Assembly (NCBI RefSeq): GCF_003790525.1
Contig: NZ_CP033635.1
Strand: one strand, 5' to 3'
Source of the DNA: Escherichia coli
Lineage (GTDB): Bacteria > Pseudomonadota > Gammaproteobacteria > Enterobacterales > Enterobacteriaceae
Length of the DNA stretch: 64,000 bases
In this document: positions 2,089-38,377 of the stretch, in pieces
How positions within the stretch are numbered: the first letter of the stretch is position 1
Layout: every line of letters begins with the position of its first letter
Program-made: the position numbers and the translations under genes
The notes under the pieces: generated by a model
The model's database searches: none
Told to the model about the DNA's origin: nothing
Seen by the model: only the letters and a program-made list of their open reading frames with translations

Positions 2089-2666
2089 GTTTCAGGACGC
2101 CACAATTTAAGCGTTCTCCCTAAAAATCATTTCTACCGAACTCAACCAGATTCTCCCCACAACACCAGCATTTTGCGGGTATATCCCAATTCGGGGAAAT
2201 GTGTTCCTGAGCGATAGCACTGACTGACGTGAAATGTCGTGCGGCCCCGTGATGCTGTTGAACGTCAAATGACGTCATCAGGAGCGTAACGCATCCATAA
2301 AGCACAACATCGGTCTGAACGCCGACTGATAAGATTTTCTGAATGAGAACAAAGAGAAATGTATCGGTCCACTTGCTCATGCAAAGACTAACAATCCATT
2401 AAAATAGTAAGCGCTCCGGACAACTTTCCATGGATTATTTTCTGCACATTTTTCTTTGGCAAAGATGATGAATTTTGATGGTAAGGAAAATTACTTCTGG
2501 TTCTCAGTAAAATCCTTTCGTAATACTATGTAATCAAGAAGTTTATGGCGGGTAAAAATAACGTCTTGCATTCACCAATAATATGTAAATAAACCCATCT
2601 ATAGATGGAAAAAATAGATTATGGCAATTATCATTGCATCATTCCCTTTTCGAATGAGTTTCTATT

Positions 2667-4205
2667 ATGCAACAACCTGTAGTTCGCGTTGGCGAATGGC
2701 TTGTTACTCCGTCCATAAACCAAATTAGCCGCAATGGGCGTCAACTTACCCTTGAGCCGAGATTAATCGATCTTCTGGTTTTCTTTGCTCAACACAGTGG
2801 CGAAGTACTTAGCAGGGATGAACTTATCGATAATGTCTGGAAGAGAAGTATTGTCACCAATCACGTTGTGACGCAGAGTATCTCAGAACTACGTAAGTCA
2901 TTAAAAGATAATGATGAAGATAGTCCTGTCTATATCGCTACTGTACCAAAGCGCGGCTATAAATTAATGGTGCCGGTTATCTGGTACAGCGAAGAAGAGG
3001 GAGAGGAAATAATGCTATCTTCGCCTCCCCCTATACCAGAGGCGGTTCCTGCCACAGATTCTCCCTCCCACAGTCTTAACATTCAAAACACCACAGCGCC
3101 ACCTGAACAATCCCCAGTTAAAAGCAAACGATTCACTACCTTTTGGGTATGGTTTTTTTTCCTGTTGTCGTTAGGTATCTGTGTCGCACTGGTAGCGTTT
3201 TCAAGTCTTGAAACACGTCTTCCTATGAGCAAATCGCGTATTTTGCTCAATCCACGCGATATTGACATTAATATGGTTAATAAGAGTTGTAACAGCTGGA
3301 GTTCCCCGTATCAGCTCTCTTACGCGATAGGCGTGGGTGATTTGGTGGCGACATCACTTAACACCTTCTCCACCTTTATGGTGCATGACAAAATCAACTA
3401 CAACATTGATGAACCGAGCAGTTCCGGTAAAACATTATCTATTGCGTTTGTTAATCAGCGCCAATACCGTGCTCAACAATGCTTTATGTCGGTAAAATTG
3501 GTAGACAATGCAGATGGTTCAACCATGCTGGATAAACGTTATGTCATCACTAACGGTAATCAGCTGGCGATTCAAAATGATTTACTCCAGAGTTTATCAA
3601 AAGCGTTAAACCAACCGTGGCCACAACGAATGCAGGAGACGCTCCAGCAAATTTTGCCGCATCGTGGTGCGTTATTAACTAATTTTTATCAGGCTCATGA
3701 TTATTTACTGCATGGCGATGATAAATCATTGAATCGTGCCAGTGAATTATTAGGTGAGATTGTTCAATCATCCCCAGAATTTACCTACGCGAGAGCAGAA
3801 AAAGCATTAGTTGATATCGTGCGCCATTCTCAACATCCTTTAGATGAAAAACAATTAGCAGCACTGAATACAGAAATAGATAACATTGTTACACTGCCGG
3901 AATTGAATAACCTGTCCATTATATATCAAATAAAAGCGGTCAGTGCTCTGGTAAAAGGTAAAACAGATGAGTCTTACCAGGCGATAAATACTGGCATTGA
4001 TCTTGAAATGTCCTGGCTAAATTATGTGTTGCTTGGCAAGGTTTATGAAATGAAGGGGATGAACCGGGAAGCAGCTGATGCATATCTCACCGCCTTTAAT
4101 TTACGCCCAGGGGCAAACACCCTTTACTGGATTGAAAATGGTATATTCCAGACTTCTGTTCCTTATGTTGTACCTTATCTCGACAAATTTCTCGCTTCAG
4201 AATAA
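2667..4205 (+). CDS. cadC: CadC, membrane-integrated ToxR-like transcriptional activator of cadBA
   Basis: 512-aa ORF with N-terminal winged-helix DNA-binding domain, one transmembrane segment and periplasmic sensor domain; upstream of cadBA. Confidence 0.93.
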   Translation: MQQPVVRVGEWLVTPSINQISRNGRQLTLEPRLIDLLVFFAQHSGEVLSRDELIDNVWKRSIVTNHVVTQSISELRKSLKDNDEDSPVYIATVPKRGYKLMVPVIWYSEEEGEEIMLSSPPPIPEAVPATDSPSHSLNIQNTTAPPEQSPVKSKRFTTFWVWFFFLLSLGICVALVAFSSLETRLPMSKSRILLNPRDIDINMVNKSCNSWSSPYQLSYAIGVGDLVATSLNTFSTFMVHDKINYNIDEPSSSGKTLSIAFVNQRQYRAQQCFMSVKLVDNADGSTMLDKRYVITNGNQLAIQNDLLQSLSKALNQPWPQRMQETLQQILPHRGALLTNFYQAHDYLLHGDDKSLNRASELLGEIVQSSPEFTYARAEKALVDIVRHSQHPLDEKQLAALNTEIDNIVTLPELNNLSIIYQIKAVSALVKGKTDESYQAINTGIDLEMSWLNYVLLGKVYEMKGMNREAADAYLTAFNLRPGANTLYWIENGIFQTSVPYVVPYLDKFLASE

Positions 4206-4570
4206 GTAACTCCCGGGTTGATTTATGCTCGGGAATATTTGTTGTTGAGTTTTTGTATGTTCCTGTTGGTATAATATGTTGCGGCAATTTATTTGCCGCA
4301 TAATTTTTATTACATAAATTTAACCAGAAAATATTCCGTAATCCATTGTAAACATTGAATGTTTATCTTTTCATGATATCAACTTGCGATCCTGATGTGT
4401 TAATAAAAAACCTCAAGTTCTCACTTACAGAAACTTTTGTGTTATTTCACCTAATCTTTAGGATTAATCCTTTTTTCGTGAGTATTCTTAGCGCCAGTTT
4501 GGTCTGGTCAGGAAATAGTTATACATCATGACCCGGACTCCAAATTCAAAAATGAAATTAGGAGAAGAGC
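4206..4570 (+). promoter_or_regulatory. cadBA promoter region (Pcad) with CadC-binding sites expected
   Basis: 365-bp AT-rich spacer between cadC and cadB; individual binding sites not mapped from sequence. Confidence 0.4.
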
Positions 4571-9648: not shown

Positions 9649-9884
9649 CTGTCGTAAAAACAATTGGTTATGAATAAATTAACTTTCAGTTTATCACACT
9701 AGTAAATCGAGATTAATAAGTCATTTAAACCATTTTTATGGTTATTTATTAGTGATATCAACTTGAGGTAAGCGTTAGTTTCGATAAGATAAACTGAGTT
9801 ATTAATAGTCGAGGCAGATAATACAGTGTACCGATCTGTCTCTTTATCTACGCTAAATTGAAAGCTGGATTTAGAGGAACCAAA

Positions 9885-11402
9885 ATGTCTGAACGAGAAA
9901 CACGGGGAGCCAATGAGGCTATTGATTTTAACGATGAACTGAGAAATCGCCGCGAAAAACTGGCGGCACTACGTCAGCAAGGTGTGGCGTTTCCCAATGA
10001 TTTTCGCCGCGACCATACCTCTGACCAGTTGCACGACGAGTTTGATGCGAAGGATAACCAGGAACTGGAATCCTTAAACATTGAAGTCTCGGTTGCTGGC
10101 CGAATGATGACCCGTCGTATTATGGGGAAAGCCTCCTTTGTAACGTTGCAGGATGTCGGTGGCCGTATTCAACTGTACGTTGCAAGAGATAGCCTGCCAG
10201 AAGGTGTTTATAACGATCAGTTTAAAAAATGGGATCTGGGTGACATTATCGGTGCCCGCGGTACGCTGTTTAAGACGCAAACGGGTGAGCTTTCCATTCA
10301 CTGTACTGAGCTGCGCCTGCTGACTAAAGCACTACGTCCTTTACCAGATAAATTCCATGGTCTGCAGGATCAGGAAGTCCGTTATCGTCAACGTTATCTG
10401 GACCTCATCGCTAACGATAAATCCCGTCAAACGTTTGTTGTCCGTTCAAAAATTCTGGCCGCTATCCGTCAGTTCATGGTCGCGCGCGGCTTTATGGAAG
10501 TAGAAACCCCGATGATGCAGGTAATTCCAGGTGGGGCATCTGCTCGCCCGTTTATTACCCATCATAACGCTCTGGATTTAGATATGTACCTGCGTATCGC
10601 GCCGGAGCTGTATCTGAAACGTCTGGTTGTAGGCGGTTTTGAACGGGTATTCGAAATCAACCGTAACTTCCGTAATGAAGGTATTTCTGTTCGCCATAAT
10701 CCTGAGTTCACAATGATGGAACTCTACATGGCATATGCGGATTACCATGATTTGATTGAACTGACGGAGTCACTGTTCCGCACCCTGGCACAAGAGGTAC
10801 TGGGTACCACTAAAGTCACTTATGGCGAGCATGTGTTTGATTTCGGCAAACCGTTTGAAAAACTCACCATGCGCGAAGCAATCAAAAAATATCGTCCAGA
10901 AACCGATATGGCGGATCTGGATAATTTTGATGCTGCTAAAGCATTAGCTGAATCTATCGGAATTACGGTAGAGAAAAGCTGGGGGCTGGGACGTATTGTC
11001 ACAGAGATCTTTGATGAAGTGGCAGAAGCACATCTGATTCAGCCAACCTTTATTACGGAATATCCGGCAGAAGTGTCCCCGCTGGCGCGCCGTAATGATG
11101 TTAACCCGGAAATCACCGACCGTTTTGAATTCTTCATCGGTGGTCGTGAAATTGGTAATGGTTTTAGCGAATTAAACGACGCAGAAGATCAGGCTGAACG
11201 TTTCCAGGAACAGGTTAACGCTAAAGCTGCAGGTGACGACGAAGCCATGTTCTATGACGAAGATTACGTGACTGCGCTGGAATATGGTCTGCCGCCAACC
11301 GCTGGTCTGGGTATTGGTATCGACCGAATGATTATGCTGTTTACTAACAGCCATACTATTCGCGACGTTATTCTCTTCCCGGCGATGCGCCCACAGAAAT
11401 AA
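9885..11402 (+). CDS. lysU: Lysyl-tRNA synthetase, inducible isoform
   Basis: 505 aa from MSERETRG…; class II aaRS motifs; located next to the cad locus as for lysU. Confidence 0.93.
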
Positions 11403-11415
11403 ATTTCACTTAAAT

Positions 11416-11445
11416 GAACGAAGCAGTCAGGCGACTGCTTCGTTC
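11416..11445. terminator. Hairpin between convergent lysU and ghoT (possible bidirectional terminator)
   Basis: 13-bp stem gaacgaagcagtc / gactgcttcgttc with 4-nt loop; no clear U-tract on the plus strand. Confidence 0.4.
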
Positions 11446-11520
11446 GTCGTTCCGCAAATCCAGTTTTGAGGAGAGACGCTTCGTTTCAAGATAACCAGCG
11501 GGTCCACTCAACTACAACTC

Positions 11521-11694
11521 CTAAAAGAGAGAAAAAAGTAATGCCACAGGTAAACTCATTGGCCAGGTTATTCCGACCAGGAATGCGCTAAGTAAACGAA
11601 TATGTGTTTTCTCATGTGAGATAAACCAGATAATGACAAAGGATATGTTCACACCAATCACATAAAAAATTAATATTTTAGAGAATAGTGCCAT
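11521..11694 (-). CDS. ghoT: Type V toxin GhoT, small membrane-lytic peptide (57 aa)
   Basis: Below the ORF-track size cut-off; the reverse complement reads MALFSKILIFYVIGVNISFVIIWFISHEKTHIRLLSAFLVGITWPMSLPVALLFSLF*, matching GhoT as I recall it. Confidence 0.85.
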   Translation of the reverse strand: MALFSKILIFYVIGVNISFVIIWFISHEKTHIRLLSAFLVGITWPMSLPVALLFSLF

Positions 11695-11721
11695 TTTTTA
11701 TGTTCTTCTTATCCTTCCTGG

Positions 11722-12018
11722 CTACTTGTAAAACTGACGGAAATAGTCATCAACGGTCATAATGTTGAGGTCAAAATCAATATCCGGTAAGTCTAAGCAT
11801 TTAAGCCTGATTAAATCTTCGATTTCACTTGCGGCTAACGATGTCGTTATTGCGAAGGAATTTTCATTCAATTGTCGTGGTATCCCATATTCATCAGCCA
11901 CGATAGAGGAGAAATTCATATCATACATCAATGATCTTAACCTTAAGAACACTGAGGAATAAGATGATGGATAATCAAAAGAAACAACATAAGTATTGAA
12001 CTTGTTTTTACCTTCCAT
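11722..12018 (-). CDS. ghoS: Type V antitoxin GhoS (sequence-specific endoribonuclease)
   Basis: 98 aa from MEGKNKFNTYVVSFDYPSSY…; immediately upstream of ghoT on the same strand. Confidence 0.85.
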   Translation of the reverse strand: MEGKNKFNTYVVSFDYPSSYSSVFLRLRSLMYDMNFSSIVADEYGIPRQLNENSFAITTSLAASEIEDLIRLKCLDLPDIDFDLNIMTVDDYFRQFYK

Positions 12019-12245
12019 AATATGACTCCTATCAATATTGAACACTCTGGGGACGCAAAACTTATTAACCCCGATCGATGATTCTCATATAGGAGATATT
12101 CTTTTTTTTTGCTCAGTAAAGGGGATGACTTGGGACAAAAAAACGCTCTCTCTGACCATTCTTTGTGCATCCCCCTACCCTTCAGATACTCTCCTGCATC
12201 CCCCCGCGGAGAGCATGAAAAATATTGTGACTCTGTACTCTCCCA

Positions 12246-12518
12246 TCAACTGCGAATATCATCATACTCCCGCGTTTTATCAAATTCGTGTTTCGCAAAT
12301 GGGCATAGTGGGATAATTTTTCGTTTTTCCCGACGCATTTTTTCCACGACTTTCGCAACCAGCTGTTTACCAATCCCTTGCCCTTTCAGGCTTTCATCGA
12401 CATCGGTATGTTCGATAATCGCTAAATTCTCTCCGGTCGGCACAAAGACAATTTCAGCGATTTGCTTGCCCTGTTCGTCATTAATGTAAAATTTATTGTG
12501 GCCTTCGCGTATTTCCAT
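12246..12518 (-). CDS. yjdJ: Small GNAT-like acetyltransferase-fold protein
   Basis: 90-aa ORF matching E. coli YjdJ by sequence and position. Confidence 0.8.
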
Positions 12519-31342: not shown

Positions 31343-32434
31343 ATGCGTTTTCTGCGCCGACCAATATCGCTGCGCCAACGGCTGATATTGACCATCGGGG
31401 CCATTTTGTTGGTGTTTGAGCTGATCAGCGTCTTCTGGCTATGGCATGAAAGTACCGAGCAGATTCAGCTGTTTGAGCAGGCGCTACGCGACAATCGCAA
31501 CAACGATCGCCACATCATGCGTGAGATCCGCGAGGCGGTCGCCAGCCTGATTGTCCCCGGCGTCTTTATGGTCAGCCTGACGCTATTTATCTGCTATCAG
31601 GCGGTACGCCGCATCACCCGCCCGCTGGCGGAGCTGCAAAAAGAGCTGGAAGCGCGCACCGCCGACAACTTAACGCCCATTGCCATTCACAGCGCCACCC
31701 TCGAAATCGAAGCGGTGGTTTCAGCGTTAAACGATCTGGTCAGTCGCCTGACCAGCACGCTGGATAACGAAAGGTTGTTTACCGCTGACGTCGCGCACGA
31801 ACTGCGAACGCCACTGGCGGGGGTGCGTTTGCATCTGGAACTGCTGGCGAAAACGCATCACATTGATGTAGCACCGTTAGTGGCTCGACTTGATCAGATG
31901 ATGGAGAGTGTCTCCCAGCTGCTGCAACTGGCGCGTGCCGGACAGTCATTTTCTTCCGGGAATTATCAACATGTAAAACTGCTGGAAGATGTCATTCTCC
32001 CCTCGTATGACGAACTCAGTACCATGCTCGACCAGCGACAGCAAACCCTGCTATTGCCAGAGAGCGCCGCCGACATCACCGTTCAGGGTGATGCAACCCT
32101 GCTGCGGATGTTATTGCGAAACCTGGTAGAAAACGCCCATCGTTACAGCCCGCAAGGCAGCAACATTATGATTAAGCTGCAAGAAGATGGCGGAGCAGTC
32201 ATGGCCGTTGAAGATGAAGGACCGGGTATTGATGAGAGTAAATGCGGGGAGTTGAGTAAAGCGTTTGTACGTATGGACAGCCGTTATGGCGGGATTGGTC
32301 TGGGGTTAAGTATTGTCAGCCGCATTACACAGTTGCATCACGGGCAGTTTTTCCTGCAAAACCGGCAAGAGACTTCCGGCACGCGGGCCTGGGTACGGCT
32401 GAAGAAAGATCAGTACGTGGTAAACCAGATATAA
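31343..32434 (+). CDS. basS: Sensor histidine kinase BasS (PmrB)
   Basis: 363 aa from MRFLRRPISLRQRL…; transmembrane, HAMP, HisKA and HATPase domains. Confidence 0.93.
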   Translation: MRFLRRPISLRQRLILTIGAILLVFELISVFWLWHESTEQIQLFEQALRDNRNNDRHIMREIREAVASLIVPGVFMVSLTLFICYQAVRRITRPLAELQKELEARTADNLTPIAIHSATLEIEAVVSALNDLVSRLTSTLDNERLFTADVAHELRTPLAGVRLHLELLAKTHHIDVAPLVARLDQMMESVSQLLQLARAGQSFSSGNYQHVKLLEDVILPSYDELSTMLDQRQQTLLLPESAADITVQGDATLLRMLLRNLVENAHRYSPQGSNIMIKLQEDGGAVMAVEDEGPGIDESKCGELSKAFVRMDSRYGGIGLGLSIVSRITQLHHGQFFLQNRQETSGTRAWVRLKKDQYVVNQI

Positions 32435-32499
32435 AGAAAGCTGCTGACCACCAGCACGCTGAACACGGTAGTTAAACTTTCATAAACACGGTTTTTCAT
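32410..32499 (-). CDS. pmrR: 29-aa membrane peptide PmrR, convergent with and overlapping the basS 3' end
   Basis: Below the ORF-track cut-off; the reverse complement reads MKNRVYESLTTVFSVLVVSSFLYIWFTTY*; its last 25 nt overlap the basS coding end. Confidence 0.7.
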   Translation of the reverse strand: MKNRVYESLTTVFSVLVVSSFLYIWFTTY

Positions 32500-32569
32500 T
32501 GCACTCTCCTCCGTTAACCTGGAGGAGAGTATGCGCGTCAGAGATTAAGTGAACCTTAAGAGTTCAATT

Positions 32570-38218: not shown

Positions 38219-38237
38219 TTGTATTGTGATCGGTAAG

Positions 38238-38312
38238 CCGGATAAGGCGCTCGCGCCGCATCCGGCAACGATGCCGACTGCCTGATGCGACGCTGACCGC
38301 GTCTTATCAGGC
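38238..38312. repeat. BIME: two REP elements in inverted orientation
   Basis: gccggataaggcgctcgcgccgcatccggca and gcctgatgcgacgctgaccgcgtcttatcaggc. Confidence 0.8.
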
Positions 38313-38377
38313 TTCCCTCTCATCTGTATAAATTTCGAACTACACTTAACTGGCTTCTCTTAACTGAGGTCACCATC

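What the first reader, a model, noticed from the sequence alone, without database searches (positions are those of the whole stretch)
11416..12018. ghoST type V toxin-antitoxin pair; ghoT is invisible to the ORF track
The 57-aa GhoT membrane toxin (11521..11694, minus strand) falls below the ORF-track size cut-off but reads cleanly on the reverse strand, downstream of the 98-aa GhoS endoribonuclease antitoxin. It shows that small functional ORFs are missed by the 60-aa threshold. The hairpin at 11416..11445 lies between convergent lysU and ghoT.
Basis: partly seen in the sequence, partly recalled or inferred. Interest (0 to 1): 0.4.

Follow-up and report, generated by a model that had tools for sequence, protein, structure and literature searches.

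The report
Known E. coli ghoST toxin-antitoxin pair
This stretch is the already well-described ghoS-ghoT toxin-antitoxin operon of the E. coli chromosome, with both proteins identical to the studied K-12 versions, so it is correct but ordinary.

Summary
The minus strand of 11521..11694 translates without stop or frameshift into a 57-aa protein identical to E. coli K-12 GhoT. 11722..12018 gives a 98-aa protein identical to the GhoS solved structure (PDB 2LLZ). Both pass their Pfam thresholds by a wide margin. The order dtpC-lysU> <ghoT-ghoS <yjdJ <yjdI dcuS> matches K-12.

It also over-extends ghoS to 107 aa from an upstream GTG.

The hairpin at 11416..11445 is a perfect 13-bp stem with a 4-nt loop (-25 kcal/mol, z about -5). 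It lies between convergent lysU and ghoT and is conserved across Escherichia species. Neither strand has a canonical U tract after it, so a terminator role is inferred, not shown.

The locus is low in GC (0.35 against 0.51 for the window). It is present in about 97% of 5,426 complete E. coli genomes.

The type V mechanism, in which GhoS cleaves ghoT mRNA and MqsR cleaves the ghoS part, comes from the literature and applies here by sequence identity. The published asymmetry in GCU sites (3 in ghoS, 0 in ghoT) holds in this window.

Verdict: already known, low interest.

The parts
11722..12018 (-). ghoS (yjdK) coding sequence, 98 aa plus stop: the type V antitoxin, a Cas2-like endoribonuclease
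   Evidence: Translation. 100% identical to PDB 2LLZ. PF11080 E=6.1e-41. RefSeq annotation of identical DNA. Residues L25, R28 and M31 sit at the positions cited in PMC4010927.
12026..12030 (-). Shine-Dalgarno AGGAG, with 7 nt between it and the ghoS ATG at 12018
   Evidence: Read directly from the sequence. Invariant in six Escherichia sequences. It supports the 98-aa ATG start over the 107-aa GTG start at 12045 that the ORF tool lists.
11695..11721 (-). 27-nt purine-rich ghoS-ghoT spacer (CCAGGAAGGATAAGAAGAACATAAAAA). The AGGA motifs lie 17 nt or more from the ghoT ATG, so ghoT has no well-placed SD.
   Evidence: The spacer varies between Escherichia species, while GGAAGGATAAGAAG is nearly invariant.
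11521..11694 (-). ghoT (yjdO) coding sequence, 57 aa plus stop: a small two-helix inner-membrane toxin
   Evidence: Translation, identical to K-12 GhoT. PF10753 E=8.9e-26. GRAVY 1.50, with two hydrophobic segments either side of a polar HEKTH turn. F38 is present. Substitutions concentrate at third codon positions.
11403..11520 (-). 118-nt region between the ghoT and lysU stop codons: probable ghoST 3' UTR, and 3' UTR of lysU on the other strand
   Evidence: 13 of 118 columns vary across six Escherichia sequences, against 17 of 174 in ghoT. Alignment.
11416..11445 (.). Perfect 13-bp stem with a 4-nt loop. Probable 3'-end stem-loop (terminator or stabiliser) shared by convergent ghoST and lysU.
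   Evidence: Not repeated elsewhere in the window. Neither strand passes the U-tract rule. Identical in K-12. In four other Escherichia lineages one A>G change leaves a U.G wobble in the ghoT-sense RNA but a C.A mismatch in the lysU-sense RNA.
12019..12248 (-). 230-nt yjdJ-ghoS intergenic region, presumed to hold the ghoST promoter, which was not located
   Evidence: The only consensus promoter-like site on the - strand (12283..12255) lies inside yjdJ. A block covering roughly window 12085..12165 is conserved across Escherichia.

Best explanation
This is the chromosomal ghoS-ghoT (yjdK-yjdO) operon of Escherichia coli, the founding type V toxin-antitoxin system, in its normal place between lysU and yjdJ.

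Shown here: both reading frames are intact, both proteins are identical to the experimentally studied K-12 proteins, and gene order, orientation and neighbours are those of K-12.

Taken from the literature and applied by identity:
- The two genes are co-transcribed, antitoxin first.
- GhoS is a stable Cas2-like endoribonuclease. It neither binds GhoT nor represses the promoter. It cleaves the ghoT part of the mRNA, so little toxin is made.
- Under stress, the type II toxin MqsR, a GCU-specific RNase, preferentially cuts the ghoS part. That part has 3 GCU sites and ghoT has none. This enriches ghoT mRNA.
- GhoT, a 57-aa protein with two transmembrane helices, then damages the inner membrane, lowers ATP and slows growth (the 'ghost cell' and persister phenotypes).

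Inferred here: the perfect 13-bp hairpin about 75 nt past the ghoT stop is the 3'-end stem-loop of the ghoST transcript, acting in termination and/or protection against 3' exonucleases. It probably also serves convergent lysU. Its lack of a good U tract on either strand makes it a non-canonical terminator.
For: Identity and annotation:
- DNA is 100% identical to E. coli strain 702/18, where the genes are annotated ghoT and ghoS.
- DNA is 98% identical to the K-12 locus. All ghoS and ghoT differences are synonymous.
- Pfam GhoT_OrtT scores 90.4 bits and GhoS 138.8 bits.
- GhoS is identical to PDB 2LLZ.
- Synteny with K-12 b4124-b4131. LysU is 503/505 identical.

Sequence features:
- GhoT hydropathy fits two transmembrane helices, and F38 is present.
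- GCU sites number 3 in ghoS and 0 in ghoT, as stated in PMC4344625.
- ghoT evolves under purifying selection.
- The locus is present at 80% coverage or more in 5264 of 5426 complete E. coli genomes and in other Escherichia species.
- Hairpin statistics and conservation.

Mechanism statements come from PMC4344625, PMC4010927 and PMC5408214.
Against: Nothing argues against the identification. The limits are these:
- RNA cleavage, toxicity and co-transcription cannot be tested with sequence tools.
- The GCU asymmetry is not significant on its own. Zero GCU in ghoT occurs in 10.5% of mononucleotide shuffles.
- No canonical terminator was called on either strand.
- No promoter was located.
- The type V mechanism rests mainly on work from one group of laboratories, largely with overexpression. 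The primary papers (PMC3514572, PMC3620836) were not available to read.
Confidence: 0.97

Rival explanations
1. The 57-codon ORF is a chance open frame in AT-rich DNA, and the stretch is only the 3' UTR of ghoS.
For: Short ORFs are abundant here: one search lists 75 ORFs of 20 aa or more in 4.5 kb. ghoT lacks a well-placed Shine-Dalgarno sequence.
Against: Pfam E=8.9e-26. Identity to the characterised toxin. Substitutions are biased to third codon positions and the frame is intact in six Escherichia lineages. Published start-codon and F38R mutants abolish toxicity of GhoT or its homologue OrtT (PMC4344625).
Confidence: 0.01
2. The genes are correctly identified, but 'toxin-antitoxin' overstates their physiology. 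GhoS would be a general Cas2-like RNase tuning several transcripts. GhoT would be a small membrane protein like its orphan paralogue OrtT. The pair would be a fixed core-genome module rather than an addiction or defence module.
For: GhoS overproduction lowers about 20 other transcripts (PMC4010927). The locus is chromosomal and nearly universal in E. coli, with only 3 of 5372 places on plasmids. There is no match in PADLOC defence models. The homologue OrtT works without any antitoxin.
Against: The literature reports that GhoS neutralises GhoT and cleaves its mRNA. The low GC (0.35 against 0.51) and the restriction of close relatives to Escherichia fit an acquired module. The tight antitoxin-toxin gene order is typical of TA operons.
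Confidence: 0.1
3. The hairpin at 11416..11445 serves lysU only, as its terminator or 3' stabiliser, and ghoST transcripts end elsewhere. Alternatively it has no role in transcript ends.
For: It begins only 14 nt after the lysU stop but 75 nt after the ghoT stop. The terminator scan called nothing on either strand.
Against: In lysU sense the stem is followed by GUCGUUCC, with no U tract. In ghoT sense the tail is AUUUAAGUGAAAUUUAUUU, which is closer to a terminator tail. The A>G variant in other Escherichia keeps pairing only in the ghoT-sense RNA. This is a single substitution, so the evidence is weak.
Confidence: 0.25

Closest known systems
GhoT/GhoS type V toxin-antitoxin system of E. coli K-12 (b4559/b4128; Wang et al. 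2012, Nat Chem Biol 8:855, cited in PMC4344625)
   Same: Both proteins are 100% identical. Gene order, 27-nt spacer, flanking genes and 3' hairpin are the same. Operon DNA is 98% identical.
   Different: Only synonymous and intergenic substitutions: 4 in ghoS, 3 in ghoT, and about 16 differences including indels in the intergenic regions. This is a strain-level allele, identical to strain 702/18.
OrtT (YdcX), orphan toxin homologous to GhoT
   Same: Same Pfam family PF10753, same 57-aa length, two predicted transmembrane helices, conserved F38, and 63% identity to GhoT according to PMC4344625.
   Different: OrtT has no adjacent antitoxin, is not neutralised by GhoS, and its mRNA carries two GCU sites. 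The window protein is GhoT itself, sits next to ghoS, and has no GCU site.
Cas2 endoribonucleases of CRISPR-Cas systems
   Same: The literature describes GhoS as a structural homologue of Cas2 with shared catalytic residues, including R28 (PMC4010927).
   Different: There is no CRISPR array or cas gene beside it. Its Pfam family is GhoS, not Cas2. The structural comparison was not repeated here.
Bidirectional intrinsic terminators between convergent genes
   Same: A single strong symmetric stem-loop in the short gap between two convergent genes.
   Different: There is no U tract of 5 or more U in 8 nt on either side. No 3'-end data for this site were found.

Membership tests
GhoT toxin (Pfam PF10753 Toxin_GhoT_OrtT) | Sequence match above the curated family threshold | tested here: met
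   90.4 bits against a cut-off of 22.1, E=8.9e-26, covering profile positions 1-55 of 55.
GhoT toxin (Pfam PF10753 Toxin_GhoT_OrtT) | Identity to the experimentally characterised K-12 GhoT, including F38, which is needed for toxicity | tested here: met
   57/57 identical. F38 is present. The F38R effect is cited in PMC4344625.
GhoT toxin (Pfam PF10753 Toxin_GhoT_OrtT) | Small, very hydrophobic protein with two membrane-spanning segments | tested here: met
   GRAVY 1.50. Hydrophobic windows cover residues 1-26 and 32-57, separated by HEKTH. This was a Kyte-Doolittle scan only, not a dedicated transmembrane predictor.
GhoT toxin (Pfam PF10753 Toxin_GhoT_OrtT) | Membrane damage and growth arrest when produced | not testable with these tools
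   Known for the identical K-12 protein from the literature.
GhoS antitoxin (Pfam PF11080) | Sequence match above the curated family threshold, and identity to the solved structure | tested here: met
   138.8 bits against a cut-off of 21. 98/98 identical to PDB 2LLZ chain A.
GhoS antitoxin (Pfam PF11080) | Endoribonuclease activity specific for ghoT mRNA, with catalytic R28 | not testable with these tools
   R28 is present. The activity is known only from the literature.
Type V toxin-antitoxin system | Antitoxin and toxin genes adjacent on one strand, antitoxin first, forming one transcription unit | tested here: met
   ghoS 11722..12018 and ghoT 11521..11694 are both on the - strand with a 27-nt gap and no terminator-like site between them. 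Co-transcription itself was not tested.
Type V toxin-antitoxin system | A protein antitoxin that acts by cleaving toxin mRNA rather than by binding the toxin | not testable with these tools
   Literature only (PMC4344625).
Type V toxin-antitoxin system | Control by MqsR: GCU sites in ghoS but none in ghoT | tested here: met
   3 GCU in ghoS and 0 in ghoT, matching PMC4344625. Not significant alone: P(0)=0.105 in shuffles.
Rho-independent (intrinsic) terminator, for the hairpin | Stable G+C-containing stem-loop | tested here: met
   13 perfect pairs (7 G-C), 4-nt loop, -24 to -25 kcal/mol, z about -4.6 to -5.
Rho-independent (intrinsic) terminator, for the hairpin | U-rich tract immediately 3' of the stem | tested here: not met
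   No terminator-like sites on either strand. The tails are AUUUAAGU in ghoT sense (4 U of 8) and GUCGUUCC in lysU sense (3 U of 8).
Rho-independent (intrinsic) terminator, for the hairpin | Mapped RNA 3' ends at the site | not testable with these tools
   The supplements of one Term-seq re-analysis (PMC12207403) do not mention ghoT or lysU.
REP or other dispersed palindromic repeat, for the hairpin | Multiple copies in the genome | tested here: not met
   Within the 64-kb window the arm sequence occurs only at the hairpin itself. The two 2-mismatch hits are within chance expectation. The whole genome was not tested.

The most novel reading that the evidence does not exclude
The conserved 118-nt 3' region, with its perfect hairpin, may be a strand-asymmetric RNA element. 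In ghoT sense it would protect the ghoT 3' fragment from exonucleases after MqsR has cut the ghoS part. That would make the hairpin part of the toxin-activation switch rather than a plain terminator. The purine-rich spacer may also pair with ghoT codons 17-20 to limit toxin translation.
Probability: 0.12. Interest if true: 0.3.

Novelty: already known. Interest (0 to 1): 0.06.

Why it matters
It matters little for biology. The locus is a textbook example, present in nearly every E. coli genome and annotated by standard pipelines.

Its practical value is as a positive control for the scan. A functional 57-aa gene is lost at a 60-aa ORF cut-off. The 'first start after a stop' rule mis-starts ghoS at a GTG 27 nt upstream of the real ATG. 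Both are useful calibration points for how the ORF track should be read.

Tried and rejected
- NCBIfam HMMs: no model matches GhoT or GhoS, so PGAP must name them by another rule. This is not evidence against the identification.
- PADLOC defence models: no hit.
- Rfam on 11300..12400 with permissive E-values: only a meaningless eukaryotic lncRNA hit, at 17 bits against a gathering score of 80. There is no known sRNA or riboswitch here.
- Promoter scan: no convincing ghoST promoter. The one minus-strand hit lies inside yjdJ. The alignment of upstream regions shows a conserved block but no clear -35/-10.
- Terminator scan: none called.
- 11-nt inverted repeat spanning the ghoT start (11660-11670 / 11693-11703). 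It is absent from the minimum-free-energy fold. Folds of the initiation region are no more stable than shuffles (z -0.4 to -1.7). The consensus fold shows no compensatory changes. I rejected it as evidence of a regulatory structure.
- Primary papers (PubMed 22941047, PMC3514572, PMC3620836) are not held, so mechanism statements rest on secondary citations.
- Term-seq supplements of PMC12207403 do not mention ghoT or lysU.
- The genome-contig scan with the GhoS protein found only close Escherichia relatives. It says nothing about distant homologues.

Full report
**What is there**

I read window 11200..12400 and listed all ORFs of 20 aa or more.

- The minus strand of 11521..11694 is an uninterrupted ATG-to-TAG frame. 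It encodes 57 aa, MALFSKILIFYVIGVNISFVIIWFISHEKTHIRLLSAFLVGITWPMSLPVALLFSLF.
- Upstream of it on the same strand, after a 27-nt spacer, 11722..12018 encodes 98 aa.
- At the default 60-aa cut-off the ORF list for this region omits the 57-aa frame. It also reports ghoS as a 107-aa ORF starting at a GTG at 12045.
- The real ghoS start is the ATG at 12018. An AGGAG lies 7 nt upstream of it (12026..12030) and is invariant across Escherichia. The solved structure also begins at this methionine.

**Identity**

- The 901 bases 11300..12200 are 100% identical to E. coli strain 702/18. There RefSeq annotates 'type V toxin-antitoxin system toxin GhoT' and 'endoribonuclease antitoxin GhoS' at exactly these positions.
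- Gene order is dtpC, lysU (+), then ghoT, ghoS, yjdJ, yjdI (-), then dcuS, dcuR (+). This matches K-12 MG1655 b4124-b4131.
- The neighbour labelled lysS by PGAP is lysU: 503/505 identical to K-12 LysU at the syntenic position.
- Against K-12, the operon and its flanking intergenic DNA are 98% identical. The differences in ghoS (4) and ghoT (3) are all synonymous. GhoT is 57/57 identical to K-12 and GhoS is 98/98 identical to PDB 2LLZ.
- Pfam gives PF10753 Toxin_GhoT_OrtT at 90.4 bits (cut-off 22.1) and PF11080 GhoS at 138.8 bits (cut-off 21).

**Is ghoT really coding?**

ORF length alone is unconvincing in 35% GC DNA, so I looked at substitutions across six Escherichia sequences. These were the window, K-12, E. 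whittamii, two unnamed Escherichia species and a divergent E. coli.

- The frame is intact in all six.
- 11 of 17 variable sites fall at third codon positions.
- 10 variable codons are purely synonymous.
- The 5 amino-acid changes are conservative: A/T, L/V, K/R, V/F and T/I.
- The protein is extremely hydrophobic (GRAVY 1.50). Two hydrophobic stretches lie either side of a polar HEKTH turn, consistent with the two transmembrane helices described for the family (PMC4344625).

**Mechanism**

None of the biochemistry can be tested here. It transfers by sequence identity from published work.

- GhoS is an antitoxin that does not bind the toxin or regulate transcription. It cleaves ghoT mRNA. GhoT is a membrane-lytic toxin (PMC4344625).
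- GhoS is a Cas2 structural homologue with R28 as its key residue. It also lowers about 20 other transcripts (PMC4010927).
- MqsR activates GhoT by preferentially cleaving the ghoS part of the ghoS-ghoT mRNA (PMC5408214).
- One sequence-level prediction could be checked and holds. The MqsR site GCU occurs 3 times in ghoS and never in ghoT, as stated in PMC4344625. By shuffling, zero sites in ghoT has P of about 0.1, so this agrees with the model but is not independent proof.
- ghoT has no well-spaced Shine-Dalgarno sequence. The nearest AGGA ends 17 nt from the ATG. Low basal translation of the toxin would fit this, but that is inference.

**The hairpin**

- 11416..11445 is a perfect 13-bp inverted repeat with a 4-nt loop.
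- It folds at -25.4 kcal/mol in lysU sense and -24.3 in ghoT sense. z is -4.95 and -4.60, with 0 of 200 shuffles as stable.
- It is not a dispersed repeat within the window, and Rfam has nothing here.
- It is identical in K-12.
- In four other Escherichia lineages a single A>G change converts one pair to a U.G wobble in ghoT-sense RNA, but to a C.A mismatch in lysU-sense RNA. This is a weak hint that the ghoT-sense structure is the one maintained.
- The consensus terminator scan calls nothing on either strand. The tail is AUUUAAGU in ghoT sense and GUCGUUCC in lysU sense.
- My reading is that it is the 3'-end stem-loop of ghoST and possibly also of lysU, but a non-canonical one. I put about 0.6 on a role for ghoST, alone or bidirectional, about 0.15 on lysU only, and about 0.25 on no role in 3'-end formation. 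I found no 3'-end mapping data for the site.

**Population and evolutionary context**

- The locus is present at 80% coverage or more in 5264 of 5426 complete E. coli genomes, almost always as a single chromosomal copy.
- One genome that lacks it (KFu022) has an IS1 next to yjdJ. The region toward tRNA-Phe has been deleted, removing ghoST, lysU and dtpC.
- GC content is 0.35 in both genes and 0.39 across 11403..12248, against 0.51 for the window. This suggests an anciently acquired islet.
- A scan of one genome per species found close GhoS relatives only in Escherichia. That method finds close relatives only.

**Things tried that led nowhere**

- No promoter could be placed.
- An 11-nt inverted repeat spanning the ghoT start codon is not part of the predicted fold. 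Folds of the initiation region are no better than shuffled controls and show no covariation.
- NCBIfam and PADLOC have no models matching either protein.
- The primary GhoST papers were not available.

**Verdict**

This is the known ghoST type V toxin-antitoxin operon with wild-type proteins. Its only residual value is methodological: it shows the effect of the small-ORF cut-off and of the ORF tool's start-codon rule. A minor open question about the 3' hairpin remains. Interest is low.

Noticed in passing
window 11722..12045 (-): The mechanical ORF list reports ghoS as 107 aa from a GTG at 12045. The real start is the ATG at 12018, 7 nt after an AGGAG. So the ORF track over-extends this gene as well as missing ghoT.
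   Followed up: yes
window 9885..11402 (+); L001 1586..3103: RefSeq/PGAP names this gene lysS in strain 702/18. By synteny and 503/505 identity it is lysU, the second, inducible lysyl-tRNA synthetase of K-12.
   Followed up: yes
L003 (E. coli KFu022) 2555..4381: This strain lacks ghoST, lysU and dtpC. An IS1A sits directly beside yjdJ, and next to it are a broken integrase gene and tRNA-Phe, dicD and dsbD. This indicates an IS1-associated deletion that removed the region.
   Followed up: partly
L008 (Bacillus sanguinis BML-BC004, contig of 306 nt): A 306-bp contig in a Bacillus assembly encodes GhoS residues 44-98 at 100% identity to E. coli. This is almost certainly E. coli contamination of that assembly.
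   Followed up: no
window 11660..11670 and 11693..11703: An 11-nt perfect A/U-only inverted repeat pairs the 9 nt before the ghoT ATG plus its first 2 bases with codons 9-12. It is not in the predicted minimum-energy fold, is only partly conserved in other Escherichia, and the folds are not significant.
   Followed up: yes
window 11700..11720 and 11636..11646 (-): The consensus fold pairs the purine-rich spacer GGAAGGAUA with UAUCCUUUG in ghoT codons 17-20 in all six Escherichia sequences. That could mask the only SD-like motif. There is no compensatory change and no significant stability.
   Followed up: partly
window 12166..12175 and 12195..12204: A direct repeat TGCATCCCCC occurs twice, 29 nt apart, in the yjdJ-ghoS intergenic region. 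One copy differs in K-12 (GATGTGATGCA), so it is probably not a conserved binding site.
   Followed up: partly
L004 (Escherichia sp. MOD1-EC7003), about 45 nt upstream of ghoS: A 53-nt insertion lies in the ghoS upstream region relative to all other Escherichia sequences aligned (columns 206-258).
   Followed up: no
window 9650..9949: The dtpC-lysU intergenic region is very AT-rich, at GC 0.33. This is typical of a heavily regulated promoter region. It was not examined.
   Followed up: no
window 32403..32568 (-) and 38236..38313 (+): Rfam matches above the gathering score elsewhere in the window: sRNA STnc630 (183 bits) and naRNA4/CssrE (87.5 bits). Neither is related to this finding.
   Followed up: no
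E. coli genome search: 3 of 5372 matching places are on plasmids, and a few genomes carry two copies of the ghoST region. These were not inspected.
   Followed up: no
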